This document shows positions 45,284 to 60,803 of a stretch of DNA of 64,000 bases, one piece after another. Below the pieces are notes generated by a model. It did no database searches. It was not told the origin of the DNA and worked only from the letters and a program-made list of their open reading frames with translations. The translations under genes were made by a program, and so were the position numbers. Source of the DNA: Thermoanaerobaculia bacterium (GTDB lineage: Bacteria; Acidobacteriota; Thermoanaerobaculia; UBA5066; DATFVB01). Location: positions 69-64,068 of the forward strand of contig JBOGJO010000034.1 of assembly GCA_050747885.1 (NCBI GenBank), written 5' to 3'. Numbering within the stretch: position 1 is the stretch's first letter; every line of letters starts with the position of its first letter.

Positions 45284-47716
45284 TCAGAACGTGTACTTCA
45301 CTCTCGCCGCCAGCGTCCTCGGCGGAATCACGTGCGTTCCGCCGAAGGTCGAGAGCACGTTGTAGACACCTTTCTTATCGAAGGCGTTGAGTAAGTCGAC
45401 CTGCAACGAGACGGGAACTCCGTAGCGCGTTAGATCGGCCCCGGCAGAGAAATTCCAGATCGTGCGGGGCTTGATCCGGTTTGGATCGAGGTTCGTGTTC
45501 GACGTGAAGTTGATGTATGGGTACGCGAAGGCGTTGTCCGGGTCCTGCAGGATCGTTTGGTCCGCCCCGGTGACGAGCCCGGAATCGTAACGGGCCATCG
45601 CCGCCGCCCAGAACCCGGACGATCCAAAGGCATAGTTCAACCCGCCCTGAATTTGGAGTTTCTCGTCGTGGTCGATGACGAAGGGCCCCCCGTTGACGGC
45701 GTCGAGCGCGCCCGAGTCCAGGAAGAGGCCGCCAGCCAGCGGCGGCACGTAGATGGCGCGCGTGTGGCCGACCGAAAGGTACCCTCGAAAGCCATCGATG
45801 GGAGCCGAGTCCAGGCGCACGTTCCACCCGTGGAGTTTTCCTTGCGAAAACGCCAGCGGAAAGACGATCCCCGTGTTCTGGAACTGGTCCTGGTCACCCG
45901 CAAATTTCGAGTCGCGCCGCCAAAAATCGACATCCAGGCGGACATAGGGGCCGACTTGCTGCTGGAGTCCCAGGTCATACGCGTCCTGCCGCTCCGACGG
46001 GACGAAGAGGAGACCGTCGCCGAGCGCTCTCGACTGCTGCACGTCCGGCGGGGCCAGCGCCGCGGCCTCTTCCGAGGAGGAGAAGAGGATGTTCTCGTAC
46101 TCCGGTGTCTCGAAGATCCGGTTGTACGAGGCTCGAAAGACGGACTTCGTTTGGGAAATGAAGTAGCTCACACCGACTCTCGGCTCGAGCTGGGATTCTT
46201 TCAGTGGAAAGCTATTATGGTCATAGCGCAGTCCGATCTGTGCCGTGAGATTTCCGAGCCGGATCGTGTCCTCCGCGAATCCGGCCAGGTAAGTGACCGT
46301 CTTGGATTGTTCGAACCGGAAGACTGCGCCCCCTCGCGTGAGGTCATAAGGCGCGAGATTGGGATTGTAATCGGGCGACGAGGGATCGTTGAGGTTCGGG
46401 TCGGTGATCCCAAAGGAGAACCGCTCTTGAATGGGATAGCTCTTCAAGATGGCTCCGAACTTGAGCTCGTTCGCGTTGCCCACCTGAATCGAGAGTGTCG
46501 GCTGGACGCCGTAGTTATCGAGCGACCGCTTGGAGCTCGTGATGACCGACGGGTCGTTGGGCGAACCGCGGTACGTGAACCGGTTGTTCCGGGCGAAAAG
46601 CGTCGTGTCGAGCACGGTCGTCGAGCCGAAGACGTGTTGCCATCCGAGGTTCGCGTTCCAGTCGGTCGTCTCGACGGTGTTGTCCGTATCCGCGGCCTGC
46701 TGTGTGAGCGTGTTCGTCACATCCCGATTGGTCCTCCCGATGAGTCCCGAAAGTCGGAAGCTGTCGCCGCCGCCTGGCGTCGTTCTGTCGAGGCGTAGGA
46801 AGGCCCGTTCGGTGTCGCCGTGGTTGTGAAAATTGTCAAAGTTGACGGGATCGAGGAACCGATCGGATTTCGAGCCGTCCACGGACCCGAAGTACCCGAG
46901 GGTATCGGAGCCCCCTCCCACCGAGGCCCCGGCGTCGTAGGTGCCAAACTTCGCGCCGCCCGCGTGGACGTCCCCGTGCGGGCCGCCGGTTCCGAGGCCC
47001 GATTTCGTCGTCAGATTGATGACCGCTGCAATCTTCTCGCCGTATTCGGCCGGCACGTTCCCGTAGATGACCTCCGCGGACTGAAGAATGCCGGGGTCGA
47101 TCGAGTTCGAAAACGTCGTGCCGATCTGGTCCGTGATCGGCTGGCCGTCGACGACGTAGCTCTGCTGGCTGTGCGCGCCCTGAAAGTGGTAGCGCCCGTT
47201 CTCGTCGGCGGAGAAACCGGGCGCCTGGATGACAAGCGCTTCCATGCCGCGCGACGGAGTCGCCGCAGGTGCGTGCTCGATGAACGACTTGTCTATGTCG
47301 ACGTGCGATTGCGACGAATCGGTCTCAAGGACCGCCGCCGGCTTCTCCGCCTCCACCTTCACCGTTGCTGTCACCGATTCGAGAGCGAGGGTCACGGGCT
47401 GATCGATCGGCGCGGTGCTCCGCACGTCGATTGCGAGGTGTTGCGTCGCGAAGCCCTGCACCTCGACGTGGAGTTCGTAGGGGTTGAACGGAACGTTGAA
47501 GAATGAGTATTTCCCGTCCGCTTCCGTTACGGCCTGCGCCTTGAACCCGGTGATGTCGTTGCGAAGGACGAGCGGAACGCCCCCCATCGGTTTCCCGTCG
47601 GGTCCGGTTACCGTCCCGCGAATCGAACCGGCGGCAAGCGCCGCGAGACAGTTGTTCCTACCCAGGACAAGCGAGACGGACAAAGTCAAAATCGATATCA
47701 GGATGCGATTTCTCAC
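45284..47716 (-). CDS. TonB-dependent outer-membrane receptor with N-terminal CarboxypepD_reg-like domain
   Basis: GTG start after GGGAGGAAA. Signal peptide. …GTVTGPDGKPMGGVPLVL…TEADGKYSF… is a CarbopepD_reg fold. Plug and 22-strand-barrel length (810 aa). C-terminal …KYTF. Confidence 0.85.
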   Translation of the reverse strand: MRNRILISILTLSVSLVLGRNNCLAALAAGSIRGTVTGPDGKPMGGVPLVLRNDITGFKAQAVTEADGKYSFFNVPFNPYELHVEVQGFATQHLAIDVRSTAPIDQPVTLALESVTATVKVEAEKPAAVLETDSSQSHVDIDKSFIEHAPAATPSRGMEALVIQAPGFSADENGRYHFQGAHSQQSYVVDGQPITDQIGTTFSNSIDPGILQSAEVIYGNVPAEYGEKIAAVINLTTKSGLGTGGPHGDVHAGGAKFGTYDAGASVGGGSDTLGYFGSVDGSKSDRFLDPVNFDNFHNHGDTERAFLRLDRTTPGGGDSFRLSGLIGRTNRDVTNTLTQQAADTDNTVETTDWNANLGWQHVFGSTTVLDTTLFARNNRFTYRGSPNDPSVITSSKRSLDNYGVQPTLSIQVGNANELKFGAILKSYPIQERFSFGITDPNLNDPSSPDYNPNLAPYDLTRGGAVFRFEQSKTVTYLAGFAEDTIRLGNLTAQIGLRYDHNSFPLKESQLEPRVGVSYFISQTKSVFRASYNRIFETPEYENILFSSSEEAAALAPPDVQQSRALGDGLLFVPSERQDAYDLGLQQQVGPYVRLDVDFWRRDSKFAGDQDQFQNTGIVFPLAFSQGKLHGWNVRLDSAPIDGFRGYLSVGHTRAIYVPPLAGGLFLDSGALDAVNGGPFVIDHDEKLQIQGGLNYAFGSSGFWAAAMARYDSGLVTGADQTILQDPDNAFAYPYINFTSNTNLDPNRIKPRTIWNFSAGADLTRYGVPVSLQVDLLNAFDKKGVYNVLSTFGGTHVIPPRTLAARVKYTF

Positions 47717-50144: not shown

Positions 50145-52796
50145 TCAATGGGGCTCTTCCTTCCCCCTCGTCAGGGCGATCGCGAACCTCTTGTCGGCCC
50201 GGAGGCCGGCAAATTCCGGGTCTTTTTCCACGAGCGCCGGGGGGTATCCTGATTGTACCGCCTTGCCGAGCTCGTCGAAGGCCGCCGGAAGGTCGTGGGC
50301 GATCACGTAAACCACGGAAGCCTGGTAATCGACGTCGGGGTCGCCGCGCCCGGCCTGCGAGGCCCGCCGGATTTCCGCGAGAGCCTCGGTCGGTTTGCCG
50401 GTTTTTGCGAGCGAACTGGCGAGGATCGAGCGGACGAGCCCGTCGCCCGGGTTGCGCTCGAGCTCCTTGCGGCACAGTTCGAGAGCGCGTGAATAGGCCC
50501 GCCGGGAGCCCTCCTGCCGCCCCGGTGTCCAGCGGAGGGCGTCTCCCAGGTTCGACCAGACCCGGTAGAGGTCGGGCGTGAGCTTCGTGGCTTCCTCGAA
50601 AGCGGCCGCCGACTGGGCGTAGTTCCCGAGAAAGAACTCGACGGTCCCGATGTTGGACTGGGCGAAGCCCGTGGGCTGAAGCGCCAGGGAGCGCCGGAAC
50701 GCTGCGAGAGCCTTCTCGAGATCGTTGGCGAGGAAGTACGCCCCGCCGAGGTTGGAGAGGGCCATCGCGTTGTCCGGCGTCAGCTCGGTCACGCGGCGGA
50801 ACGCCGCGGCGGCCTCTTCATATCGGCCCCGGGCGTAGTAGAACCCCGCGAGCTTGCTGTAACCGCCCCAGTACGTGGGCTGGAGATTGAGCGCCTCCCG
50901 GAACGCCTTTTCCGCGTCCGCGTCCCTGCCGGCGGCTCCCAGGGCTCGCGCCAACCCGAGCCTCGCCTCGAAGCTCGTCGGCGACGCGGCGAGCGCCTGT
51001 TGAAACGCCTCGACCGCGCCCGCGGCGCCCCCGGAATGGAGCCGGAGCTCGCCCAGCGTGATGTCCACTTCGATCAGCGACGGCCCCAGCTCGCGCGCGC
51101 GCCGCGCGGCGGTTTCCGCCTTCGAGGTATCTCCGGAATCGTGCGTCAGGTCGAAATGCTCGAGATATGCCCGGGCGAGCGAGGCAAACACGTAAGGCGA
51201 TCGCGGCGCCTCCTGCGACAGGGTTTCCAGGATGGCCGTGGCATTTTCGACCGACTCGCGGGTGTTGTAGTGCTGGAGAAGGCCGACCGCCTTCAAGTAG
51301 CGTTCCTGGTCCGTCCCGGAGGGCAGGCCCGACGCGGCGGAGACCCGTCGAACGGCCGGAATCGATTCCGCTTCGCTCACCTTCGCAACGAGGCGGTCCT
51401 GAAGCTCGAACAGGTCGGACGCGGAGCCGTCGAGCGTGCCGCCCGAGAGCTCCGCTCTCTTGCGCACGTCCCACAGCGAATACGTGATCCGCACCCGATC
51501 CCGGCTTCTCTGCACGGCGCCCTGGAGGAGCTGCGACGCGCCGAGGTCGCGGGCTGCGTTGAGCGGATCCGGCTCCTTCGCGGAAGCGGCAATGACCGCC
51601 GCGGGCGACACGACCTGGAGCCCGGTCGACCCCCCGATGGCCGAAGACACCGTCTCGACGAGGCCCTCGCCGAGAAGTTTTCCGTCCGGCGCGCTCGAGA
51701 GGTCGCGAAACGGCAAAATCGCCAGCAGCCTCGCGGGAGGGATCGCGGAGGCCGTCGGGGGCGCGGGCGAGGAGGCCGGCGGCTCCGCCTTTCGACGCGG
51801 GCGAAGAGTGATCACCAGCGCCGCCCCGGCGACCAGCGCCGCCGCCGCGCCGGCGGCGATCTTCGCGGATTTGGATAAGCGCCGCGGCGCCGGCAGGGGA
51901 ATCACGCTCCGGGACGTCGGACGGCGCGGGTCGATCTCCAGAAGCAGCTCTTCGATCGCGAGGCGCGCGTCGCCGATGTCGCGCAACCGCTGCGCGGGAT
52001 CTTTTTGAAGGCAGCGCGCGAGCATTTCGCGCAGAGCGGGAGGCGTTTCGGGGGGAAGCAAATCCCATTCCGGCTCCGACCGAAGGATCGCGGCAAAAGC
52101 GTCCGGCACGGAGTCTCCCGTGAAGGCGCGACGTCCCGAGAGACACTCGAAAACGATGCACCCGAAGGCCCAGATGTCGGTGCGCTTGTCGATGGCCTTG
52201 CCCCGGGCCTGTTCGGGGCTCATGAATTCGATCGTGCCGAGAATCACGCCGGGGCGAGTTTCGTCGAGGGCCGCCGTTGTTTCGCGGGAGAGGCCGCCCA
52301 CGACTTCCGAACGAAGGCCTCCCGCGATCTTGGCCAGGCCGAGGTCGAGGATCTTCGCGCGGCCGTCGGGCGTGACCATGACGTTGGCGGGCTTGAGATC
52401 GCGGTGAACGATTCCGCGCTCGTGGGCCGCTTCGAGGGCCTCGGCGATCTGGCGGGCGATCCGCAGGGTCTCCCGCATCGACAGCGGGCCGCGGAGATGG
52501 TCGGAGAGAGTCTTTCCCTCGACGAGCTCGAGGATGAGGTATCTCTGATCGCCGGCCTCTTCGGCGCCGTAGATGGCGGCGATGCCGGGATGGTTGACGG
52601 AAGCCAGGAGGCGGGCCTCCCGTTCGAAGCGGGAAATCCGCGACGCGTCGCGGCCGGACGACTCGGGGAGCACCTTGATGGCCACCTCGCGCCCGAGTTT
52701 CGTGTCGATCGCCCGGTAAACCTCGCCCATGCCTCCGGCCCCGAGAAGGTTTCGGATCTCGTAGGAGCCGAGTCGGGTGCCTGGTTCTAGTTCCAC
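50145..52796 (-). CDS. Ser/Thr protein kinase with TM segment and C-terminal TPR repeats
   Basis: …LGAGGMGEVYRA…AIK…, HRDLKPANVMV, DLGLAK. Mid-protein TM. Multiple TPR-like repeats in the C-terminal half. Confidence 0.85.
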   Translation of the reverse strand: MELEPGTRLGSYEIRNLLGAGGMGEVYRAIDTKLGREVAIKVLPESSGRDASRISRFEREARLLASVNHPGIAAIYGAEEAGDQRYLILELVEGKTLSDHLRGPLSMRETLRIARQIAEALEAAHERGIVHRDLKPANVMVTPDGRAKILDLGLAKIAGGLRSEVVGGLSRETTAALDETRPGVILGTIEFMSPEQARGKAIDKRTDIWAFGCIVFECLSGRRAFTGDSVPDAFAAILRSEPEWDLLPPETPPALREMLARCLQKDPAQRLRDIGDARLAIEELLLEIDPRRPTSRSVIPLPAPRRLSKSAKIAAGAAAALVAGAALVITLRPRRKAEPPASSPAPPTASAIPPARLLAILPFRDLSSAPDGKLLGEGLVETVSSAIGGSTGLQVVSPAAVIAASAKEPDPLNAARDLGASQLLQGAVQRSRDRVRITYSLWDVRKRAELSGGTLDGSASDLFELQDRLVAKVSEAESIPAVRRVSAASGLPSGTDQERYLKAVGLLQHYNTRESVENATAILETLSQEAPRSPYVFASLARAYLEHFDLTHDSGDTSKAETAARRARELGPSLIEVDITLGELRLHSGGAAGAVEAFQQALAASPTSFEARLGLARALGAAGRDADAEKAFREALNLQPTYWGGYSKLAGFYYARGRYEEAAAAFRRVTELTPDNAMALSNLGGAYFLANDLEKALAAFRRSLALQPTGFAQSNIGTVEFFLGNYAQSAAAFEEATKLTPDLYRVWSNLGDALRWTPGRQEGSRRAYSRALELCRKELERNPGDGLVRSILASSLAKTGKPTEALAEIRRASQAGRGDPDVDYQASVVYVIAHDLPAAFDELGKAVQSGYPPALVEKDPEFAGLRADKRFAIALTRGKEEPH

Positions 52797-52856: not shown

Positions 52857-53570
52857 TCACCAGATCCGGGTGTGGGGGAAAACTCCCCAGCTTGCCAGCC
52901 CCCGGGCGATGAGCAGGAGGCCGAGGAGACCGAACGCGGCCGCCGCAAAACGGCGCAGGCGCAGGAACGCGCCGGCGGCGCGGCCCGAAATCGCGAGGAG
53001 GAGGATGGCGGGAATCGTTCCCGCGCCGAAGACGAGCATCGTGAGCGCGCCCCCGAAGGCCGTCGCGGAGGCCGCGGCGCGGCTGGCGGCGGCGTAGACC
53101 ATGGAGCAGGGCAGGAGCCCCTGGACGACGCCGAGCAGGAGCGCGGCCGCGTAGGGGGGGGCCTGAAACGCCTCGCGGGCGCCGGCTCGCGCCAGCCGAT
53201 CGATGCCGACCGCCGCGATCAGGCGTTCCGGCCCCGGAAGGAGCCCTCCCGTCGAAAGGGCGAAGAGCAGGGCGAAGGACCCGGCCAGGATCGACACGGC
53301 TCCCGCGACACCCGCGCGAACGCTTGCGGCTTCGCCGATTTGTCCCAGCGCCCCGGCGATGGCGCCGATCGCCGTGTACATGGCGATCCGCCCGCCCAGA
53401 AACAGACTCCGAAGGACCGCGCGCGTTCCCGCCCCGCCATGGCCGAGCCGAGCGGAGCAAATCGCGACGTACGGACCGCACATTCCGACGCAGTGGGAGC
53501 TTCCGAGGAGCGAGGCGAGAAAGAGCAGCGACAGGTCTCCCGGGGGAAGGGCGTGGTGGTGCATGGGCAC
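52857..53570 (-). CDS. DsbD_2 / TauE-SafE-like membrane protein with HCxxMCGP motif (cbb3 oxidase-associated)
   Basis: MPMHHHALPP… then …SSHCVGMCGPYVA…. 6 TM. Positioned immediately after ccoS. Confidence 0.6.
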   Translation of the reverse strand: MPMHHHALPPGDLSLLFLASLLGSSHCVGMCGPYVAICSARLGHGGAGTRAVLRSLFLGGRIAMYTAIGAIAGALGQIGEAASVRAGVAGAVSILAGSFALLFALSTGGLLPGPERLIAAVGIDRLARAGAREAFQAPPYAAALLLGVVQGLLPCSMVYAAASRAAASATAFGGALTMLVFGAGTIPAILLLAISGRAAGAFLRLRRFAAAAFGLLGLLLIARGLASWGVFPHTRIW

Positions 53571-53577
53571 CGGGGGT

Positions 53578-53747
53578 CACGTCTTTGCGGGCGGACTCGC
53601 CTCGTCGCCTTTCGGCAGGGAAACGATCTGATACTTGATCTTCTCGACGTCTCGAAACTGTCCCGTTCGGATCGCCCAGAGGAAGACGCACCACGCCGCC
53701 AGTCCCATCAGGAACGCCATCAGGAAGAGATACAGGGTGATGTCCAT
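53578..53747 (-). CDS. ccoS: cbb3-type cytochrome oxidase maturation protein CcoS
   Basis: Manually translated 56 aa: MDITLYLFLMAFLMGLAAWCVFLWAIRTGQFRDVEKIKYQIV…. CcoS-like (W.VK.GQ(F/Y)DD). Not in the ORF track (too short). TAG-G-ATG coupling to ccoO. Confidence 0.65.
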
Positions 53748-53748
53748 C

Positions 53749-55479
53749 CTAAGGCGCTCCGGCCGACGACGGGCCGGGGAAACCGGCGGTCGTGGGCACC
53801 GGCGGCGGGCTCGGGGACCGCGCGAGGGAGAGGGCGTAGTAAACGAGGGCCCAGCGCCTTTCCTCGGCGACCGCGTTCTTTTCGAGGTCGCTCATCTTCG
53901 AGAGAACGTCGGAGGTGGGAAGTGTTGCGACGTAGGTCTGGATCTCCTGGATCTCCGGATCCGAAAATGCCGGCTTTCCGCCGATGAGCTGCCGGTAAGG
54001 ACCCATGTCGGTGTAGGCCTCTTTCGGATACAGGATCGAGTCGTAGAAAGAAGGCATCGGGGTGCCGTTGAGCCCCGTGTTGAAGGTCCGGTACACGTCC
54101 TGCGGAGAGTTGCCGAACTTGAAGTTTCCAGTCGTGAAGTCGAAAGGACGAATCGGGACTTCCCAATCGTCGGCGAGGGCGGCGGCCGACGGTCCGTCCC
54201 CCTTGCCGGTCATTCCGTGGCAGCTCCAGCATTGGAGAACCCGGAAGACCATTCGGCCTTCGTTCAGCACGGCGGCCGGCGCTTCTTTGGGAGACGGGTA
54301 CGGCGGCACCGGAATCGTGATCGACGGGGGCACGGGCTCGGTTTTGAAGCGGTCCGAGAACGTCTTCACGTAATCGACCAGGTCCCAGCGGTCCTGCTCC
54401 GGCAGGAAATGTCCGTCCTGCATGTTGCCCCAGGCCGGCATGATCTGGCCCTTCCGGACGCCCCGGGTGATCGTGCGGAAGATGTCCTCGTCGCGGGGAA
54501 GCGCCCCCGACGGCGTCGTACGGCTCTTGAACACGCCGAAGGTGAAGTTTCGAGGTTGGGGGTTGAGAAAATGGTACGCGTCGTTGAAGTTCGTGGAGGA
54601 GTTTGCATCGGCGGTGAGCCGCCCGTTTCCGTAAGCCCCGTGGCACCCGACGCACTTCTTTTCGAAGATCGCCTTTCCGCGCGACACGCGCAGGTCGAGG
54701 GCCTCGGTCGGAGTCGGCCGCGAGTTCGTCGGCCACGGCTCCCAGATCCGCCAGTCGCCGATCGCGGTGCCGATCTTCTGAAGATACGCTTCGACGGCGA
54801 TCATCTCGCCCGTCGGGCGCGGCCCGTAGTCGTGCATGTCGATGATGCCGTCGCCCCGGGTTCCGTCTGCGTTGAGCGGCCAGACATCGAGGTCTTTCCA
54901 GTTCGGGGGGAGCTCGTCCGGAGTTACGCTTCCGTCGCCGTTCTTGTCGAGCTCGGTCTTGGTCACCCGGCCGTCGTGGTTCTTGTCGTTCTTCGCGATG
55001 AATTCGCGGACCACTTTGTCACGGGCCGGATCGTCCGCGTAGAGCCATTGAAACGACGGCATGATCGATTCGGGCTCGACGGCGCGGGGGTTCCAGTGGT
55101 GCGCGTAATGCCATTCGTCGGACCGGCGATTGCCCTCGCGCGAGAGCTCGGGGCCGATGCGCCTCGTGCCGAACATCTGGGGAAGGTCGTATGCGATTTC
55201 ACCGGCCTGAGAGACGGGTCCCCACTTGTCGGTGTCGCGGTTGACCGGCCGGATGTACTGAGAGTGGCAGTACCAGCAGCCCTCACGGATGTAAACCTTC
55301 CGGCCCGACTCCTCGAGAGCCGTCCGGTGGGGCGAAGGAATCGTGGTTCCCTCGATGGTGCGGACGATGCCGGGGCGGGTCGTTTTCTTCTCGAGCCACG
55401 GCAGGACGCCCTGGCTGGTCATCGCGAGCGCGTAGAACCCGACGGCGGCGATGAGGATGATCGGCTCGATGCGTTTCAT
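53749..55479 (-). CDS. ccoO: Fusion of the cbb3 oxidase mono-heme subunit CcoO with a diheme cytochrome c (CcoP-like), with two internal EF-hand-like Ca-binding loops
   Basis: CcoO part …CWYCHSQYIRP…MPSF…. Linker DKNHDGRVTKTE and DKNGDGSVTPDE. Two further heme motifs CVGCHGAYGNG and CWSCHGMTGKG. Paralogous to the protein at 57064-57825. Confidence 0.8.
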   Translation of the reverse strand: MKRIEPIILIAAVGFYALAMTSQGVLPWLEKKTTRPGIVRTIEGTTIPSPHRTALEESGRKVYIREGCWYCHSQYIRPVNRDTDKWGPVSQAGEIAYDLPQMFGTRRIGPELSREGNRRSDEWHYAHHWNPRAVEPESIMPSFQWLYADDPARDKVVREFIAKNDKNHDGRVTKTELDKNGDGSVTPDELPPNWKDLDVWPLNADGTRGDGIIDMHDYGPRPTGEMIAVEAYLQKIGTAIGDWRIWEPWPTNSRPTPTEALDLRVSRGKAIFEKKCVGCHGAYGNGRLTADANSSTNFNDAYHFLNPQPRNFTFGVFKSRTTPSGALPRDEDIFRTITRGVRKGQIMPAWGNMQDGHFLPEQDRWDLVDYVKTFSDRFKTEPVPPSITIPVPPYPSPKEAPAAVLNEGRMVFRVLQCWSCHGMTGKGDGPSAAALADDWEVPIRPFDFTTGNFKFGNSPQDVYRTFNTGLNGTPMPSFYDSILYPKEAYTDMGPYRQLIGGKPAFSDPEIQEIQTYVATLPTSDVLSKMSDLEKNAVAEERRWALVYYALSLARSPSPPPVPTTAGFPGPSSAGAP

Positions 55480-55482
55480 GGC

Positions 55483-56886
55483 TCAGCTCCACTGCGGTTC
55501 GGGCGCGGCGGCGGCCGAACGGGACAACGCCGGCCCGGAAACGGCGGTCTTGTAGAAGTTCCACATCCCGAGGATCGCGCCGATGTCCATCGTCACCCCC
55601 GCGAGCGTTCGTGTGAACCAGTACGGCTTCATGGCGACCATGGAGTCCACGAAATCCGCGCCGGTCTGGAGCATCTCGCCCTGCATCAGTCCTTGCAGGG
55701 TGAGAACTCCCGCCATCACGGAAAAGCCGCCGATGGTGAGCCAGTAGTGCCATTGAGCGAGCTTTCGGGAATAGAGCTCCCGGCCGGACAACCTCGGGAT
55801 CACGTAATAAAGGCCCGCCGTGATCCAGAGAATGAACGTGCCGAACACCGTGAGGTGGGAGTGCGCGATGACGAAGTCGGTGAAATGCGTCAGCCGCTGA
55901 ACTTCCCGAAGCGCCTCGGTGGAGCCCTGGAAGCAGCCGAGCAGGTAAAAGAGCGCGCCGACGATCAGGAATTTAGCCGTGTACGATTCCTGGAACCGCT
56001 TCCAGTTTCCGACCATCGTTCCGTAGAAATTCTGGATCACCGTCCAGACCGGAATGATGAGCATCATGGAAGCGACGATCGCGATCGTCTGGGTCCAGTA
56101 CGGGATCGGGCTGTAGATGTAATGGTGGGTCCCGACGAAAGGGTAGAAGAACGCGAGCGACCAGAATCCGATGAGCGAGAGGCGGTGGCTGTACAGCGGC
56201 TGACGCGCGGCAAGCGGAAGAAAATAGTAGATCACCGCGAGTCCGGCCGGAGTGATCCAGAGCCCCACGACGTAGTGGATGTAGAGACCGTGCATCGCGG
56301 CGTTGTTCACGCCCGCGAAGTGGAACGGCAGCAGGAAATGCCCGAACGCGTAATTGAACGTCGTCCAGACGAAGGCGGCCGTGAGGTACCAGAGGGTCAC
56401 GTAGATCAGTTTTTCCTTCCGGTGGATGATCGTCATGATGATCTGGATCGTGATCAGCAGGAAAACGAGCTCGACGAGGATGTTGGCCCAGGTGGGAAAT
56501 TCGCCCGCTTCGATTCCAAGGTTCGAGCCGAGCGGCAGTGAAATCAGAGCCGCCGTAAAGCCCAAATTCCAGACCCAGAAGATCGCTCGGCTCCAGTTTT
56601 CCTTGTACATCCTCACGCCGCACAGGCGCGGAACCATGTAATACGTCAGGCCGAAGATCGTCGTCGTGAACGCCCCGAAAACGACGCCCATGACGTGGAC
56701 CGGCCGGAGCCGGCCCCACGTCAGCCAGGAAATGCCCCCGAGGAAGTCATAGAAGTTGAACTTGATCGAGAGGATGACGCCGATCGTGGGCGCGAAGACG
56801 AGCCAGAAAGCGCCCGACAGGAGGAACTGGAGAACGACCGTCCGATCGACGAGGTCGTCCGCTGGACGTTCCGCGATGCTGCTCAT
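55483..56886 (-). CDS. ccoN: cbb3-type cytochrome c oxidase subunit I
   Basis: 467 aa. 12 TM. Heme-copper oxidase His ligands (…FVIAHSHLTVFG…, …VGTHHYIY…). AGAGGAGGA Shine-Dalgarno sequence. Confidence 0.9.
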   Translation of the reverse strand: MSSIAERPADDLVDRTVVLQFLLSGAFWLVFAPTIGVILSIKFNFYDFLGGISWLTWGRLRPVHVMGVVFGAFTTTIFGLTYYMVPRLCGVRMYKENWSRAIFWVWNLGFTAALISLPLGSNLGIEAGEFPTWANILVELVFLLITIQIIMTIIHRKEKLIYVTLWYLTAAFVWTTFNYAFGHFLLPFHFAGVNNAAMHGLYIHYVVGLWITPAGLAVIYYFLPLAARQPLYSHRLSLIGFWSLAFFYPFVGTHHYIYSPIPYWTQTIAIVASMMLIIPVWTVIQNFYGTMVGNWKRFQESYTAKFLIVGALFYLLGCFQGSTEALREVQRLTHFTDFVIAHSHLTVFGTFILWITAGLYYVIPRLSGRELYSRKLAQWHYWLTIGGFSVMAGVLTLQGLMQGEMLQTGADFVDSMVAMKPYWFTRTLAGVTMDIGAILGMWNFYKTAVSGPALSRSAAAAPEPQWS

Positions 56887-56898
56887 GCCGATCCTCCT

Positions 56899-57054
56899 CT
56901 AGGGTCGCCAGAATCGAATCAGGTAGTAGACCATCCAGAACCCCAGGGCCGTGAACACGGCGATCAACCATCCCGGGATGATGCCGTGGCGCTCTTCGAT
57001 CCCCGTGAATTCGTAACGGTTGATTTCGTCGGGGCCGTGCTTTTCGGTGTCCAT
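56899..57054 (-). CDS. Small single-TM protein (CcoQ/FixQ-like cbb3 subunit)
   Basis: Manually translated 51 aa: MDTEKHGPDEINRYEFTGIEERHGIIPGWLIAVFTALGFWMVYYLIRFWRP. Lies immediately upstream of ccoN. Confidence 0.5.
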   Translation of the reverse strand: MDTEKHGPDEINRYEFTGIEERHGIIPGWLIAVFTALGFWMVYYLIRFWRP

Positions 57055-57063
57055 GCCGGACTC

Positions 57064-57825
57064 CTAGGGGCCCTGTTCCGGCGTCCGCCGCGGGCCCGGC
57101 GGGCCGAGGCTCAGGACGTAGTGCGCAAGGTCCCAGGCTTCATCCTTGTTGATCGAGTCGGCGTACGACGGCATCGGAGTGCCCGACAGGCCGGTGATGA
57201 AGACGCGGTAGATGTCGGCCGCGGTGTCGCCGCACTTGATGTGTCCCTCGGTGAGGTTGTAGGGCACGATCGGATTGCCCCAATCGTCCTTGAGCTCGTG
57301 GGCGGACGGACCGTCGCCCTGCCCCTTGTCGCCATGGCACTGGACGCACTGATACTTCACAAACAGCGCGCGGCCGCGTTGGATGGACTCGGGATTGTCG
57401 GCGGGCTCGGCAGGAATCGTGATCGAGGGCTGCGGTTTTTCCTTCGTCCACCGATCGGAAAACGTCTTGATGTAGGAGATCACGTCCATGCGCGCGCGGT
57501 GGCCGATGGCGAACCACGTGGGCATGGCCGTGCCGTAGAGGCCGCCTTTGAGCGTCTTTTCGAGGTCCGCGTCGGTCGGCAGCGAGCCCGAGGGAGTCGA
57601 GCGCCATTTGAACGTTCCCTCCCGGTAGTCGCGCGGTTTCGGCGTGATCCACTCGGCGTACTCGCCCTGGCCGTTGCCCGCGTCGCCGTGGCAGGACAGG
57701 CAGTAGCGCTCGTAGACGAGTTTTCCGCGGGCAGGGCTTCCGGGCTCCTCCGCCCGGAGGGCGAGAGCCCCCGTCAGAAGGGCCCCGATCCCCAGAACAG
57801 CGATTCTTTGAACGAAGCGGTTCAT
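57064..57825 (-). CDS. Periplasmic diheme c-type cytochrome (Cyc1/CcoP-like)
   Basis: Signal peptide. CLSCHGDAGNG and CVQCHGDKGQG. GAGGAGG Shine-Dalgarno sequence. Confidence 0.8.
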   Translation of the reverse strand: MNRFVQRIAVLGIGALLTGALALRAEEPGSPARGKLVYERYCLSCHGDAGNGQGEYAEWITPKPRDYREGTFKWRSTPSGSLPTDADLEKTLKGGLYGTAMPTWFAIGHRARMDVISYIKTFSDRWTKEKPQPSITIPAEPADNPESIQRGRALFVKYQCVQCHGDKGQGDGPSAHELKDDWGNPIVPYNLTEGHIKCGDTAADIYRVFITGLSGTPMPSYADSINKDEAWDLAHYVLSLGPPGPRRTPEQGP

Positions 57826-57835
57826 CGGTACCTCC

Positions 57836-59158
57836 TCAGAAAGCGAAGTCGATGCCGAAAAAGACGGTATTGGCTCGAATGTCCGATCCGTCGGACGCGA
57901 TCTTCTTCATCCGATTCGTCTGGTATTCGGCGTGGAGAGCGTATTCGGCCCGGTTGTTGTAATTGAACGTGTACTTGATTCCCCCGGTCAACTGATCCTG
58001 ATCGTTGACGTCCTTCGCGGTGCCCGGGATCGGCTGATTGGAGTTGCGGATGAGATCGTACCGGCCGAAAAGCCCCCAGTGGAGCAGGTCGGCGGAAGGC
58101 ACCCAGACCGCTTCGAGGAAACCTCCATTCCACGATCCCGCGCGAGTCGCCTCGCCGCCGTAGAGGTCGCGCGCGTCGCTGCCGTGGGCGTAAACGAGGG
58201 AGAAGTGGAGCGGGGTCGCGGCCGGGCCCAACCAGATCTGGGCCTCCGCGCCGTATCGGGACGTCGTCTTGAGATTTCCACCTTCGCCCGGGATCGGATC
58301 GCCTCCCGAGGTGAAGGCGGTCGTGGGGTAGTTGGCCCACGCGCCGAAGGCTCCGACTTCGAACTCCGAGACGGCCGTCGAGTCCGTCTGCCAGTATTTC
58401 TGGACGTGGCCGTAGAACGACGCCGAATCGAACGCGTTTCGCGTGCCGCTGGAGTCGTTCGCATTGAAAATATCGAAGTTGTAGCGCGTCATCGAGCCGC
58501 GATCATGGCCCGTGAATTCGATGCCGCGCTGGTTGGAGCCCATGTCGAAGGCCGCCGCGGCGTTCGAGTCGGCGGCCGGATGGTACCCGTAGATGAGGTA
58601 GCCGTTGGTGAGGTTGATCGACCGGTGCGCCGAGGCCGGAAGGTCCACTTCATGCTTCCCGACCCGAACGTTGAACCAGTCGGATTTGAAAAGAAACCTC
58701 GTGAGGTAAACCCAGTACGACTCGAGGGTCACCGAACCGTCCGAGGCGAATCCGGTCGGAACGACGAGGAACGAGACGTTGTTCGTGAGGGTTCCCGCCG
58801 TCAGCAGATCCATGGCGCCGTCGGCCACCCCTCCGGTCTTGAAGTTTTTCTTCCCCTGGTCGGTGTCCTGATTCGAGACGGTGTCGTACTCGTAGTGGGG
58901 AGTGATTCGGATGGCGACCGGCCAGTAGCCCGGCGGGGTCGTCGTGGGATCGTCCTTTCCGAGCCGGAGCTGGTAGCCGTTGTCGCGATACGCCCGGCCG
59001 AAATCGTTCAGGACGGGCCACGACTCATGGCAGCTCGTGCAGCGAAGGCCCGTCTTGCGTGCGAACGCCGGGATCGCGGCCGCTGGCCGCGCGCAGGAGA
59101 AGACCAGAGCGATGCCCAGCACCGCCGCTGGCAGGGCGCGAACCGGAAAACGTAACAT
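57836..59158 (-). CDS. Cyc2-like outer-membrane fused monoheme cytochrome c-porin
   Basis: ATG at 59158 after GAGGAGGUG. Signal peptide MLRFPVRALPAAVLGIALVFSCARPAAA. A single CxxCH near the N-terminus (KTGLRCTSCHESWPVLNDFG). About 400-aa amphipathic beta-rich region ending …FGIDFAF (C-terminal Phe). Confidence 0.65.
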   Translation of the reverse strand: MLRFPVRALPAAVLGIALVFSCARPAAAIPAFARKTGLRCTSCHESWPVLNDFGRAYRDNGYQLRLGKDDPTTTPPGYWPVAIRITPHYEYDTVSNQDTDQGKKNFKTGGVADGAMDLLTAGTLTNNVSFLVVPTGFASDGSVTLESYWVYLTRFLFKSDWFNVRVGKHEVDLPASAHRSINLTNGYLIYGYHPAADSNAAAAFDMGSNQRGIEFTGHDRGSMTRYNFDIFNANDSSGTRNAFDSASFYGHVQKYWQTDSTAVSEFEVGAFGAWANYPTTAFTSGGDPIPGEGGNLKTTSRYGAEAQIWLGPAATPLHFSLVYAHGSDARDLYGGEATRAGSWNGGFLEAVWVPSADLLHWGLFGRYDLIRNSNQPIPGTAKDVNDQDQLTGGIKYTFNYNNRAEYALHAEYQTNRMKKIASDGSDIRANTVFFGIDFAF

Positions 59159-59182
59159 CGGGCACCTCCTCAAAAACGCGTG

Positions 59183-59938
59183 TTATTTCGCGGTCAGGTG
59201 AAAGTCCAGCGTCGCGGTTTTCCCCGCGACGACCGTCACCGGCGTCGTTTTTTCTCCAGCGGCCTCGTGCCAGGCGACCAGCGCGTAGGTTCCGGGCGGC
59301 ACGTCGTCGATCTCGAATTTTCCCTCGGCGTCGGTCGTCGCGAAATACGGGTGATCGAATTCCAGGATCCACGAGCGCATCCACTCGTGGACGTCGCACT
59401 TGACCCGCAGGATGGTGGCCTGGGGCGGGAGGGGCTTGACGACCGAGAACCCTTTGAAGGGAAGCGCCACGTTGTAGAGCGTCGCGTTCGTGGCGGCGAT
59501 CTGCGGGTGAGTGTTGTGGAGGATGGGATCGTCCGAGACGACCTTGAGCTGCTGGCCCACGCAGGCGCCCTGGACGCGCGGGCGAAACATGCAGTGCTCG
59601 TTGGTCAACGTGATCGGACTCGTGGGTTTCGCCTTCCCCTTCGAAATGTCCTTGATGTAGACCTCGACGTTGGCGAGACCTCCCGACTTTCCGACGTCGT
59701 AGAGGGGGTTGACGATCGTCTTCCCGCAGTAATCCTGGTTTTTCGTCGTCTTGATGGGGGCGATGGCCGGAGCGGGTCCGCTCAATTTCACGACGCCGCT
59801 GATCTTTCCACCGTTGGCCACCGTTTCGACCTGGTACGGGGCCGCGAGGGCCATGGGGACTGCTGCCAGAATGACAACAATTCCAGCGAGGCACGATTTC
59901 AGGACGCGCGAAACCGAGGATTTGCGGGCGGTTTTCAT
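59183..59938 (-). CDS. Secreted cupredoxin-like (type-1 copper) protein
   Basis: Signal or anchor sequence. Ligand pattern …HNTH… then C-D-V-H-E-W-M (C-x2-H-x2-M). AGGAGA Shine-Dalgarno sequence. First gene after the promoter. Confidence 0.6.
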   Translation of the reverse strand: MKTARKSSVSRVLKSCLAGIVVILAAVPMALAAPYQVETVANGGKISGVVKLSGPAPAIAPIKTTKNQDYCGKTIVNPLYDVGKSGGLANVEVYIKDISKGKAKPTSPITLTNEHCMFRPRVQGACVGQQLKVVSDDPILHNTHPQIAATNATLYNVALPFKGFSVVKPLPPQATILRVKCDVHEWMRSWILEFDHPYFATTDAEGKFEIDDVPPGTYALVAWHEAAGEKTTPVTVVAGKTATLDFHLTAK

Positions 59939-59962
59939 TAAAATCTCCTAAAGAATAAATTA

Positions 59963-59991
59963 AAAATACGGCTCCCCGGAAAGAGTGTCAA
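59963..59991 (-). promoter_or_regulatory. Sigma70-like promoter for the cupredoxin-cyc2-cbb3 operon
   Basis: On the minus strand: TTGACA, a 17-nt spacer, then TATTTT, about 30 nt upstream of the cupredoxin ATG in an AT-rich stretch. Confidence 0.4.
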
Positions 59992-60311: not shown

Positions 60312-60803
60312 ATGCCCGGTCTCGCAAGGCTGACGATCGAAACGGTTTTCACCGCATATGTCGTTCCGGCACTGCTGACGCCAGTTGTCTGGCTGGGAAC
60401 GATCGCTTCTCGCAAGCTGCATCCGGTCGGGGCGTCGCCGGAAGCGCGGATCGCCAGGATCGAGCGCGCCTATGTTGCCCTCGGAGCGCTCTTGCTCGCG
60501 CTCGGGCTCGCGGCATGGGCGGGCGTTCCGGTCGAGCGGGGGGGGCGGGCAATGACTTACGCCGCGTGGGCGATGTACGTGGCGCTCAACCTGCTGTTCG
60601 CCGGGCTGGTCGGCGCGATGGCGACGGGCTATCCGAAACTTCCCGAAGGGCGCCGCCGAGATCGGCTTTTCGTTCGCTTTCTCGTGGAGACGGCTTTTCA
60701 GCCGATCGTGACCGCGGGGACCTTCCTGCTTCTCTACCGCCTGCTTCGCGTCGTCTTCCACCGTACGATCCCGGTCCTGGGCGCCGTGCAGGAGGGGATC
60801 TGA
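60312..60803 (+). CDS. Hypothetical membrane protein
   Basis: 163 aa with 4 hydrophobic helices. Divergent from the small minus-strand gene. Confidence 0.45.
   Translation: MPGLARLTIETVFTAYVVPALLTPVVWLGTIASRKLHPVGASPEARIARIERAYVALGALLLALGLAAWAGVPVERGGRAMTYAAWAMYVALNLLFAGLVGAMATGYPKLPEGRRRDRLFVRFLVETAFQPIVTAGTFLLLYRLLRVVFHRTIPVLGAVQEGI

What the first reader, a model, noticed from the sequence alone, without database searches (positions are those of the whole stretch)
52857..59991. Cupredoxin / Cyc2-like cytochrome-porin / diheme cytochrome c / cbb3 oxidase operon: a candidate extracellular iron-oxidation or electron-uptake respiratory chain
A single tightly packed minus-strand operon encodes, in order:
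- a secreted type-1 copper protein;
- a 440-aa protein with a signal peptide, one CxxCH at about residue 40, and a long beta-rich body ending in Phe;
- a periplasmic diheme cytochrome c;
- a CcoQ-like peptide, CcoN, a CcoO-diheme cytochrome c fusion, CcoS and a DsbD_2 protein.

It is preceded by TTGACA-N17-TATTTT, and intergenic gaps are 1-24 nt. The second protein has the architecture of the fused cytochrome-porin Cyc2. That is the architecture of the Cyc2 to periplasmic cytochrome c (Cyc1) to terminal oxidase pathway of Fe(II) oxidisers. Here a cupredoxin stands in the rusticyanin position and cbb3 is the terminal oxidase, as in neutrophilic microaerophilic iron oxidisers. The ccoI copper ATPase lies 900 bp away. 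Finding this module in an organism with an Acidobacteriota-like gene complement would be unusual and is worth characterising.
Basis: partly seen in the sequence, partly recalled or inferred. Interest (0 to 1): 0.85.

Follow-up and report, generated by a model that had tools for sequence, protein, structure and literature searches.

The report
Cyc2 cytochrome-porin operon feeding cbb3 oxidase
A Thermoanaerobaculia (Acidobacteriota) genome fragment carries one tight operon joining an outer-membrane Cyc2-type haem-porin, a small copper protein, a two-haem cytochrome and a complete cbb3 oxygen reductase; this looks like a cbb3 version of the iron-oxidising "rus" operon and turns out to be common, not rare, in soil bacteria.

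Summary

- **First gene.** It has a cupredoxin fold with conserved His/Cys/His/Met, nested in a transthyretin-like domain. Only structure prediction shows this.
- **Oxidase.** It keeps all haem and CuB ligands.
- **Synteny.** Fourteen other species-level genomes hold the same set next to a cbb3 oxidase, eleven in the window's order. More distant relatives (mainly Terriglobia, plus a few Gemmatimonadales) have cyc2-dihaem-cupredoxin-coxBACD, the gene order of the Acidithiobacillus rus operon.
- **Input slot.** In other relatives of this oxidase, Sox-like genes occupy the slot that Cyc2 occupies here.

Best reading: an outer-membrane electron-input module, most likely for Fe(II), wired to a dedicated high-affinity oxidase.

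Function is inferred, not shown. The claim that this is unusual in Acidobacteriota is wrong. I found no published description of this operon.

The parts
59963..59991 (-). sigma-70-like promoter site TTGACA-N17-TATTTT upstream of the first gene
   Evidence: 10 of 12 matches; 2 sites found vs 0.7 expected; sequence read
59183..59938 (-). secreted 251-aa copper protein: cupredoxin domain (about residues 97-198; candidate ligands H141/H144, C181, H184, M187) nested inside a transthyretin-like CarboxypepD_reg domain (strand 44-52 plus residues 199-249)
57836..59158 (-). Cyc2-family fused monohaem cytochrome-porin (440 aa): signal peptide, AIPAFARKT motif, CTSCH at residue 40, PVL, beta-barrel, C-terminal Phe
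57064..57825 (-). periplasmic dihaem cytochrome c (253 aa, signal peptide, CLSCH and CVQCH); paralogue of the dihaem domain fused to CcoO
   Evidence: Pfam Cytochrom_C/Cytochrome_CBB3 x2; 43% identity to CcoO fusion residues 258-482; PDB 6h5l_B E 4e-58
56899..57054 (-). 51-aa membrane peptide, weak FixP_N (CcoP anchor)-like; conserved in this position
   Evidence: Pfam FixP_N E 0.0012, below cutoff; 47-68% identical orthologues between the dihaem gene and ccoN in type-A loci
55483..56886 (-). CcoN, catalytic subunit of a divergent cbb3-type (C-family) haem-copper oxidase
   Evidence: COX1 3e-77; ccoN TIGR00780 272 bits, below the 583 cutoff; aligns with solved cbb3 CcoN at E 1e-59, with the His ligands and cross-link Tyr motifs conserved
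53749..55479 (-). CcoO fused to a CcoP-like dihaem cytochrome c domain (3 CXXCH), with two EF-hand-type loops inserted in the CcoO part
   Evidence: FixO 6e-42 plus Cytochrome_CBB3 x2 and weak EF-hand hits; motifs listed
53577..53747 (-). CcoS, cbb3 maturation protein
   Evidence: FixS 3e-09; TIGR00847 34.1 bits, above the 28.35 cutoff
52857..53570 (-). DsbD_2-family membrane protein, constant companion of this oxidase type
   Evidence: PF13386 6e-33; present in all type-A loci and in L085-L087
60019..60249 (-). 76-aa small membrane ORF between ccoI and the promoter; conserved in 7 related Acidobacteriota loci
   Evidence: tblastn 49-62% identity; no Pfam hit
60312..60803 (+). 163-aa membrane protein of unknown family. 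In most related loci it lies between ccoO and ccoS on the operon strand. Here, and in L004, it is upstream and inverted
   Evidence: tblastn 35-49% identity in 13 loci with positions; 163/164-aa gene in L001 and L084
60807..62852 (-). CcoI/FixI-type copper P-type ATPase
   Evidence: E1-E2_ATPase, Hydrolase, ATPase-cat_bd; syntenic in related loci

Best explanation
The locus is a self-contained respiratory module. It takes single electrons at the outer membrane and delivers them to oxygen.

**Proposed path**
1. A Cyc2-family protein (one c-type haem at the mouth of a 16-strand porin) oxidises a soluble extracellular or periplasm-accessible donor, most probably Fe(II).
2. The electron passes to periplasmic carriers encoded on either side of it. 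One is a type-1-like cupredoxin built into a transthyretin-like domain. The other is a soluble dihaem cytochrome c, a paralogue of the oxidase's own entry domain.
3. It then goes to the three c-haems of the CcoO-CcoP fusion.
4. It finally reaches the haem b3-CuB site of CcoN, where O2 is reduced and a proton-motive force is made.

ccoS, the DsbD_2 gene, ccoI and two small membrane proteins mature this oxidase.

**What it resembles.** It is the cbb3-oxidase counterpart of the Acidithiobacillus rus operon (cyc2-cyc1-cup-coxBACD-rus).

**Shown versus inferred.** Shown here: the identity and fold of the parts, and their conserved linkage. Inferred: the direction of electron flow, the order of the two carriers, and Fe(II) as the donor.
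For: **Cyc2 identity**
- The motif, the single CXXCH, the PXL and the length match the published definition.
- The model has a porin fold with the same PDB neighbours reported for Cyc2 and Cyt572.
- Only the haem domain aligns with another Cyc2 subfamily, as described for the family.

**Linkage**
- Fourteen distinct other species-level genomes (L003, L004, L005 [the same contig as L001], L006-L009, L011, L013-L017, L020, L046; Acidobacteriota and Steroidobacterales/Gammaproteobacteria) hold this gene set next to a cbb3 oxidase. Eleven are in the window's order (one of them, L009, with its cupredoxin gene displaced). Three (L003, L006, L013) have a divergent arrangement.
- A different Cyc2 subfamily sits in front of a 73%-identical CcoN in L084.

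**rus-like relatives**
- About 55 loci, mainly Terriglobia plus a few Gemmatimonadales, have cyc2-like, dihaem c, cupredoxin, coxB, coxA, coxC, coxD.
- That is the same order as the published rus operon.

**Input-slot logic**
- In L086 and L087 the same cupredoxin and oxidase are preceded by Metallophos, a SoxA/TsdA-type cytochrome and SoxYZ-like genes instead of Cyc2.

**Functional oxidase**
- All haem and CuB His motifs and the cross-link Tyr are conserved.

**Copper site**
- H141/H144, C181, H184 and M187 are invariant.

**Biochemical precedent (from papers)**
- Fe(II) oxidase activity is reported for Cyc2 of clusters 1, 2 and 3 (PMC8406198; PMC13647500).
Against: - No experiment bears on this protein or on any member of its subfamily. 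All relatives found come from uncultured MAGs.
- The Cyc2 cluster (1, 2 or 3) could not be assigned, because neither the FeGenie models nor reference sequences were available.
- The authors of the family regard the function of cluster-3-like homologues as the least certain.
- Cyc2 homologues are common in organisms not known to oxidise iron.
- The barrel of this subfamily is unusually conserved (mean column identity 63%), unlike the poorly conserved porin of classical Cyc2. This could reflect a different substrate.
- The haem domain of the model has low confidence (pLDDT below 50 for residues 23-78).
- The dihaem cytochrome is not detectably a c4/Cyc1 homologue by sequence.
Confidence: 0.6

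Rival explanations
1. The hardware and the direction of flow are the same, but the donor is not Fe(II). The Cyc2-like porin would oxidise another one-electron donor that reaches the outer membrane or periplasm, such as Mn(II), Cu(I), reduced humic or quinone compounds, or another metal complex.
For: - The barrel of this subfamily is far more conserved than expected for a Cyc2 porin, with many invariant His, Asp, Glu and Trp residues.
- Cyc2 has been proposed for Mn(II) oxidation in Ca. Manganitrophus.
- The same oxidase and cupredoxin accept a Sox-like input module elsewhere, so the chain is not donor-specific.
- The carriers are soil heterotroph lineages not known as iron oxidisers.
Against: Every Cyc2 tested so far oxidises Fe(II). 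No other substrate has been demonstrated for any family member.
Confidence: 0.2
2. The chain is not primarily for energy conservation. Either it removes Fe(II) and O2 together as protection against Fenton chemistry, or it can run outward and act as an electron exit to Fe(III) when oxygen is absent.
For: A preprint states that the A. ferrooxidans rus proteins are reversible. Acidobacteriota are discussed mainly as Fe(III) reducers.
Against: Co-transcription with a complete proton-pumping-type oxidase and its maturation genes points to electron flow towards O2. No quinol-oxidising partner is encoded in the cluster.
Confidence: 0.1
3. This is a generic cbb3 locus. The cupredoxin-like protein would be a copper chaperone or assembly factor for the oxidase, and the porin would be only a neighbour.
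For: - The cupredoxin gene accompanies oxidase genes even where no Cyc2 is present (L086, L087).
- ccoS, ccoI and DsbD_2 are maturation genes.
Against: - The full His/Cys/His/Met electron-transfer ligand set is invariant.
- The trio of cupredoxin, Cyc2-like and dihaem c genes also occurs with no oxidase gene found in the flanks held (up to 10 kb each side; L010, L012).
- Cyc2 linkage is kept across cbb3- and aa3-type clusters and through rearrangements.
- A related oxidase lacking both Cyc2 and the cupredoxin exists (L085), so the cupredoxin is not needed for assembly of this oxidase type.
Confidence: 0.07

Closest known systems
rus operon of Acidithiobacillus ferrooxidans (cyc2-cyc1-cup/acoP-coxBACD-rus)
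   Same: One transcription unit joins a Cyc2 cytochrome-porin, a periplasmic dihaem cytochrome c, a cupredoxin and a complete haem-copper oxidase. The aa3-linked relatives found here repeat the exact order cyc2-dihaem-cupredoxin-coxB-coxA-coxC-coxD.
   Different: - The oxidase here is cbb3 (C-family), not aa3.
- The cupredoxin gene comes first.
- The cupredoxin is nested in a transthyretin-like domain and shows no sequence similarity to rusticyanin or AcoP.
- There is no second cupredoxin.
- The dihaem cytochrome is CcoP-like rather than a detectable c4/Cyc1 homologue.
- The hosts are MAGs of soil-associated lineages such as Acidobacteriota; their pH preference was not assessed.
Neutrophilic Cyc2 pathway of Zetaproteobacteria and Gallionellaceae (Cyc2 -> Cyc1 -> cbb3)
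   Same: It has the same three functional layers and the same class of terminal oxidase, including divergent 'distal' cbb3 forms.
   Different: In the papers read here, those components are presented as a pathway model built from separate genes, not as one operon. Here they are one operon with a cupredoxin. The cluster-1 membership of those Cyc2 proteins was not shown for this protein.
Leptospirillum Cyt572-Cyt579-cbb3 chain (Cyc2 cluster 3)
   Same: An outer-membrane Cyc2 homologue feeds a cbb3 oxidase. A sequence-network study places Acidobacteria and Nitrospira homologues next to Cyt572. One distant relative found here is from a Nitrospiria MAG.
   Different: The Leptospirillum genes are reported as not clustered. 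Cyt579 is an unrelated carrier, and the organism is an acidophile.
Canonical ccoNOQP-ccoGHIS cbb3 loci
   Same: CcoN with all ligands, CcoO, CcoS and CcoI are present.
   Different: - CcoP is split into a small anchor-like peptide and a dihaem domain fused to CcoO.
- No ccoG, ccoH or ccoQ was recognised.
- A DsbD_2 protein and two unknown membrane proteins are present instead.
- CcoO carries EF-hand loops.
Porin-multihaem cytochrome complexes (MtoAB/PioAB/MtrCAB)
   Same: They also move electrons across the outer membrane.
   Different: Those use a 26-strand barrel with a separate decahaem protein. Here there is one haem fused to a porin of about 16 strands.

Membership tests
Cyc2 fused cytochrome-porin family (Keffer 2021 / FeGenie definition) | N-terminal signal peptide | tested here: met
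   Read directly: MLRFPVRALPAAVLGIALVFSCARPAAA|IPAF. A hydrophobic core is followed by AAA, and the position is conserved in 33 homologues. No SignalP run was possible.
Cyc2 fused cytochrome-porin family (Keffer 2021 / FeGenie definition) | exactly one CXXCH haem-binding motif near the N-terminus | tested here: met
   One match, CTSCH at residue 40; three Cys in total.
Cyc2 fused cytochrome-porin family (Keffer 2021 / FeGenie definition) | AXPXFAR[Q/K][T/Y] motif just upstream of CXXCH (stated to be unique to Cyc2) and PXL about 4 residues downstream | tested here: met
   The sequence is A-I-P-A-F-A-R-K-T, then GLR, then CTSCH, then ESW-PVL. There are five residues between the Arg and the first Cys. 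The L084 Cyc2 has the same spacing.
Cyc2 fused cytochrome-porin family (Keffer 2021 / FeGenie definition) | length of at least 365 aa with a roughly 16-strand beta-barrel porin after the haem domain | tested here: met
Cyc2 fused cytochrome-porin family (Keffer 2021 / FeGenie definition) | score above the calibrated cut-off of a FeGenie Cyc2 HMM and placement in cluster 1, 2 or 3 | not testable with these tools
- Pfam and NCBIfam have no model that hits.
- The paper supplements held no sequences.
- Cluster 3 is only suggested by reports for Acidobacteriota MAGs.
Cyc2 fused cytochrome-porin family (Keffer 2021 / FeGenie definition) | Fe(II) oxidase activity | not testable with these tools
   Needs expression with ccm genes and an Fe(II) assay, as in PMC8406198 and PMC13647500.
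cbb3-type (C-family) haem-copper oxidase | CcoN with the haem b, haem b3 and CuB histidines and the helix-VII cross-link tyrosine | tested here: met
   Alignment to solved CcoN (9g6b_A, E 1e-59; also 3mk7_A). The motifs GRLRPxH, the H in YxH..VG, Y..xGxHH and HxTDxxIxHxH are all conserved.
cbb3-type (C-family) haem-copper oxidase | CcoO monohaem subunit adjacent to CcoN | tested here: met
   FixO 5.6e-42 at residues 52-240, CWYCH at residue 68, and a 3-nt gap after ccoN.
cbb3-type (C-family) haem-copper oxidase | scores above NCBIfam equivalog cut-offs for ccoN, ccoO and ccoP | tested here: not met
   ccoN scores 272 bits against a 583 cutoff, ccoO 140 against 201, and ccoP 43-48 against 180. 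It is a divergent subfamily. It is filed as cbb3-type on the basis of ligands, fold family and neighbours, not as an equivalog.
Type-1 (blue) copper cupredoxin | cupredoxin beta-sandwich fold | tested here: met
Type-1 (blue) copper cupredoxin | His ... Cys-Xn-His-Xn-Met ligand set | tested here: met
   LHNTHP (H141, H144) and KC181-D-V-H184-E-W-M187 are invariant in 27 homologues and in the aa3-linked and Sox-linked versions. The geometry in the model could not be inspected, and copper binding is untested.
Rusticyanin | sequence or closest-fold relationship to rusticyanin | tested here: not met
rus-type operon (Cyc2 + dihaem c + cupredoxin + terminal oxidase in one unit) | all four components co-linear on one strand with short gaps | tested here: met
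   Gaps of 1-24 nt. The linkage is conserved in other genomes.
rus-type operon (Cyc2 + dihaem c + cupredoxin + terminal oxidase in one unit) | aa3-type coxBACD oxidase and a rusticyanin gene | tested here: not met
   The oxidase here is cbb3, and there is no rusticyanin. The locus works like a rus operon but is not one.

The most novel reading that the evidence does not exclude
The window is one instance of a widespread, modular respiratory cassette in dominant soil phyla (Acidobacteriota, Gemmatimonadota, Steroidobacterales and others).

- A constant cupredoxin-in-transthyretin adaptor and a CcoP-like dihaem cytochrome couple interchangeable donor modules to interchangeable terminal oxidases.
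- The donor modules are Cyc2 porin-cytochromes of at least two subfamilies, or Sox-like enzymes.
- The oxidases are cbb3 or aa3.

If the Cyc2 versions really oxidise Fe(II), then aerobic or microaerobic iron oxidation is a common auxiliary energy source of abundant 'heterotrophic' soil bacteria. The rus operon of acidophiles would then be one specialised offshoot of a much larger family.
Probability: 0.35. Interest if true: 0.8.

Novelty: new variant of a known kind. Interest (0 to 1): 0.58.

Why it matters
**The open problem.** There is no agreed marker for neutrophilic iron oxidation, and the function of Cyc2 homologues outside classical iron oxidisers is an open question in the field.

**What this locus adds.** Gene linkage is evidence independent of sequence similarity. 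A Cyc2 homologue is hard-wired to its own oxygen reductase and carriers. The arrangement persists across phyla, across oxidase types and across rearrangements. That makes a respiratory, donor-side role much more likely than a porin or housekeeping role.

**What becomes testable.**
- Which soil Acidobacteriota respire with Fe(II).
- Whether the cupredoxin-transthyretin protein is the missing periplasmic link.
- Whether operon context, rather than Cyc2 alone, is the better marker.

Tried and rejected
**Searches that led nowhere**
- Pfam and NCBIfam for the 440-aa protein gave no hit even at E<=10.
- A PDB sequence search for the same protein gave only noise.
- Fold search against the AlphaFold database, intended to get named Cyc2 neighbours, failed because the library was not installed.
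- Attempts to obtain reference Cyc2 sequences or cluster consensus motifs from paper supplements and by text search found nothing.
- Three cluster look-ups for names of close and distant homologues returned almost only 'hypothetical protein' from metagenomes. One Nitrospiria and one Gammaproteobacteria name were the only gains. No cultured carrier was identified.
- A sequence-profile search of the cupredoxin family against the PDB found only the transthyretin-like domain.

**Ideas considered and dropped**
- The Ser/Thr kinase-TPR gene downstream (50145-52796) is not part of the module. Kinase homologues are near some related loci, but at varying positions and orientations.
- The 51-aa peptide is not CcoQ. 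Its only similarity is to the CcoP anchor.
- The oxidase subfamily as a whole is not exclusively Cyc2-dedicated. This is contradicted by L085, which has no Cyc2 and no cupredoxin, and by L086/L087, which have a Sox-like input.

**Literature**
- Searches for a description of a cupredoxin-cyc2-dihaem-cbb3 operon, or of rus-like operons in Acidobacteriota or Terriglobia, found none.
- The library covers only open-access papers and preprints.

Full report
**1. What is in the sequence**

On the minus strand between 59938 and 52857 lie eight ORFs:
- a 251-aa protein;
- a 440-aa protein;
- a 253-aa dihaem cytochrome c;
- a 51-aa peptide;
- CcoN, 467 aa;
- a 576-aa CcoO-cytochrome c fusion;
- CcoS;
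- a DsbD_2 protein.

The gaps between them are 24, 10, 9, 12, 3, 1 and 6 nt. The 440-aa ORF starts at the ATG at 59158, six bases after GAGGAGG.

A TTGACA-17-TATTTT site lies at 59991-59963. The scan found 2 promoter-like sites where 0.7 were expected.

Pfam and NCBIfam confirm COX1/ccoN, FixO, Cytochrome_CBB3, FixS/ccoS and DsbD_2.

The P-type ATPase upstream (62852-60807) has the ATPase-cat_bd domain; I take this, from my own knowledge, as typical of CcoI.

CXXCH occurs in only three ORFs of the whole 64-kb window, and all three are in this operon.

The first gene is 100% identical to an NCBI protein of a 'Thermoanaerobaculia bacterium' MAG on a 64,611-bp contig.

**2. The 440-aa protein is a Cyc2-family cytochrome-porin**

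No Pfam, NCBIfam or PDB sequence match exists.

The authors of the family define Cyc2 by these features (PMC8406198):
- a signal peptide;
- a single CXXCH;
- an AXPXFAR[Q/K][T/Y] motif just upstream of it, which they state is unique to Cyc2;
- PXL four residues downstream;
- length of at least 365 aa;
- a 16-strand porin.

The window protein reads ...PAAA-IPAFARKT-GLR-CTSCH-ESW-PVL... and has exactly one CXXCH.

An AlphaFold2 model built on 33 homologues has moderate confidence (pLDDT 65.5, pTM 0.68). Its haem domain is unreliable, which is expected without the cofactor. A barrel follows.

A profile of the close family finds 3231 representatives at 50% clustering. The twelve full-length ones I read carry the motif in full or with a single substitution.

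Against a different Cyc2 subfamily (L084), only the haem domain aligns: 43% over 79 residues. This matches what is described for the family.

I could not run the FeGenie HMMs or obtain reference sequences. Assignment to cluster 1, 2 or 3 is therefore open. Published FeGenie results place Acidobacteriota homologues in cluster 3.

**3. The first gene is a cupredoxin, but an unusual one**

Sequence methods see only a C-terminal CarboxypepD_reg (transthyretin-like) half-domain.

- cupredoxins: NirK T1Cu domain 11.0, Nitrosopumilus cupredoxin 10.8, plastocyanin 10.0, amicyanin 9.9, AcoP of A. ferrooxidans 8.9, pseudoazurin 8.5.

From the DSSP elements and the Pfam coordinates I infer a nested arrangement. 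The first strand of the transthyretin-like domain is residues 44-52 and the rest is 199-249. The cupredoxin would therefore be inserted within that domain.

H141, H144, C181, H184 and M187 (the C-x2-H-x2-M spacing, which from memory is that of amicyanin) are invariant in 27 homologues. They are also kept in the aa3-linked and Sox-linked versions.

There is no similarity to rusticyanin.

**4. The oxidase and its carriers**

CcoN aligns over its full length with solved cbb3 enzymes (E 1e-59). The haem b, haem b3 and CuB histidine motifs and the cross-link tyrosine are conserved.

It scores below NCBI's equivalog cut-offs, so it is a divergent subfamily.

CcoP is rearranged:
- Its dihaem domain is fused to CcoO (three CXXCH).
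- A 51-aa peptide with weak FixP_N similarity sits before ccoN.

The soluble 253-aa dihaem cytochrome is 43% identical to that fused domain. It is thus a paralogue of the oxidase's own electron entry. Its best solved relative is 6h5l_B (E 4e-58). It is not detectably related to the c4-type Cyc1.

**5. Comparative genomics carries most of the argument**

Of these, 549 encode a relative of the protein. The best 80 are all MAGs: mostly Acidobacteriota (Thermoanaerobaculia, Terriglobia, Sulfotelmatobacter, Acidoferrum), plus Steroidobacterales, Gemmatimonadales, Hyphomicrobiales and others.

tblastn of all window proteins against these loci shows three contexts.

- **Type A (cbb3-linked).**
  - Fourteen distinct other species-level loci: L003, L004, L005 (the same contig as L001), L006-L009, L011, L013-L017, L020 and L046. 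L002 is a short extra fragment carrying the same protein as L001.
  - Their Cyc2-like proteins are 49-88% identical to the window's.
  - Eleven have the window's order, usually with ccoI nearby. One of these, L009, has its cupredoxin gene displaced to follow the cbb3 genes.
  - L003, L006 and L013 have the same genes in two divergent transcription units.
- **Type B (aa3-linked).**
  - About 55 loci with Cyc2-like proteins 32-37% identical, mainly Terriglobia plus a few Gemmatimonadales.
  - Their order is cyc2-like, dihaem c, cupredoxin/CarboxypepD_reg, coxB, coxA, coxC, coxC, coxD. L029, the one locus annotated with Pfam, also has a TetR gene just upstream.
  - That is the order published for the rus operon, cyc2-cyc1-cup-coxBACD. 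The paper read here reports it only for Acidithiobacillus, Acidiferrobacter and Acidihalobacter.
- **Stand-alone trio.** L010 and L012 have the cupredoxin, Cyc2-like and dihaem c genes with no oxidase gene found in the flanks held (up to 10 kb each side).

Searching from CcoN instead adds three points:
- L084 (CcoN 73% identical) has a different Cyc2 subfamily in front of the same cupredoxin, dihaem cytochrome and oxidase.
- L086 and L087 (56-59%; L087 is Tectimicrobiota) keep the cupredoxin and the oxidase. In the Cyc2 slot they have a metallophosphoesterase, a SoxA/TsdA-type cytochrome and a SoxYZ-like fusion.
- L085 (60%) has the oxidase alone.

The position occupied by Cyc2 plus the dihaem cytochrome thus behaves as an exchangeable electron-donor slot. 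The cupredoxin-transthyretin protein is the commonest partner.

**6. Mechanism proposed**

Shown:
- the parts and their folds;
- the conserved cofactor ligands;
- the linkage.

Inferred:
- Fe(II) is oxidised by the Cyc2 haem at the outer membrane. Fe(II) is the only substrate demonstrated for the family, including a cluster-3 member.
- The electron passes through the cupredoxin and/or the soluble dihaem cytochrome to the CcoO-P haems and then to CcoN.
- O2 is reduced by an oxidase type that I know, from general knowledge, to have high O2 affinity. That suits microoxic zones, where Fe(II) persists at neutral pH.
- The transthyretin-like domain may hold the cupredoxin at the barrel. This is speculation.

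**7. Rivals**

- **Another one-electron donor.** The barrel of this subfamily is unusually conserved (63% mean column identity). Cyc2 has also been proposed for Mn(II) oxidation.
- **A protective or reversible role**.
- **A generic cbb3 locus with a copper chaperone.** Three observations argue against it: the invariant electron-transfer ligand set, the stand-alone trios, and L085.

**8. Novelty**

- The parts belong to known kinds.
- The idea of Cyc2 -> cytochrome c/cupredoxin -> cbb3 is an existing model.
- Cyc2 hits in Acidobacteriota MAGs are already routine in FeGenie surveys.
- In the searchable literature I did not find any of the following described: the operon itself; its aa3-linked rus-like sisters in Terriglobia; the nested cupredoxin-transthyretin protein; or the exchangeable-input pattern.
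- I classify the locus as a new variant of a known kind, of moderate to good interest, resting on in-silico evidence only.

Noticed in passing
window 55479-53749 (-), CcoO residues 165-189: Two canonical EF-hand calcium-binding loops (DKNHDGRVTKTE and DKNGDGSVTPDE) are inserted in the periplasmic CcoO domain. They are conserved in the Acidobacteriota orthologues. One loop is kept in Steroidobacterales, and both are absent from the L003/L013 variant.
   Followed up: partly
window 60312-60803 (+); L011 15355-15822; L001 15511-16002; L084 10189-10683: This is a 163-aa membrane protein with no known family. It normally sits between ccoO and ccoS in related operons. In the window and in L004 it has been moved upstream and inverted. 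It may be an unrecognised cbb3 assembly factor.
   Followed up: partly
L029 9198-17436 and about 55 other loci (e.g. L024-L082): MAGs, mainly Terriglobia plus a few Gemmatimonadales, carry cyc2-like, dihaem c, cupredoxin and coxBACD genes in the same order as the Acidithiobacillus rus operon. L029, the one locus annotated with Pfam, also has a TetR gene upstream.
   Followed up: partly
L086 3701-13438; L087 3654-13420: The same cupredoxin-transthyretin protein and cbb3 variant are preceded by a metallophosphoesterase, a SoxA/TsdA-type cytochrome and a Desulfoferrodoxin-SoxY-SoxZ fusion instead of Cyc2. L087 is from Tectimicrobiota. This suggests a sulfur-compound input to the same oxidase.
   Followed up: partly
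L009 286-10862: One Thermoanaerobaculia MAG has the Cyc2-cbb3 module directly followed by a second cupredoxin-like gene with coxB and coxA. Both oxidase types are therefore side by side.
   Followed up: no
window 57825-57064 (-): The soluble dihaem cytochrome has a strong sequence match (E 4e-58) to PDB 6h5l chain B, deposited as 'Conserved hypothetical cytochrome protein'. From memory this is from the anammox bacterium Kuenenia. It does not match cytochrome c4/Cyc1.
   Followed up: no
L084 3013-4560: The Cyc2 gene of this locus appears split into a 416-aa product and a 78-aa product that ends in a typical barrel C-terminus (…GLWMDY). This is either a frameshift or an assembly error.
   Followed up: no
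window 45284-47716 (-) and 42953-45247 (-): The first is a TonB-dependent-receptor-like protein with an N-terminal CarboxypepD_reg domain, the same domain type that hosts the cupredoxin. The second is an ArsP_1 permease fused to a Band_7/SPFH domain.
   Followed up: no
window 50145-52796 (-): An 883-aa Ser/Thr protein kinase with TolB_N-like and TPR regions starts 60 nt after the DsbD_2 gene. Kinase homologues are near some related loci but at no fixed position, so it is probably not part of the module.
   Followed up: partly
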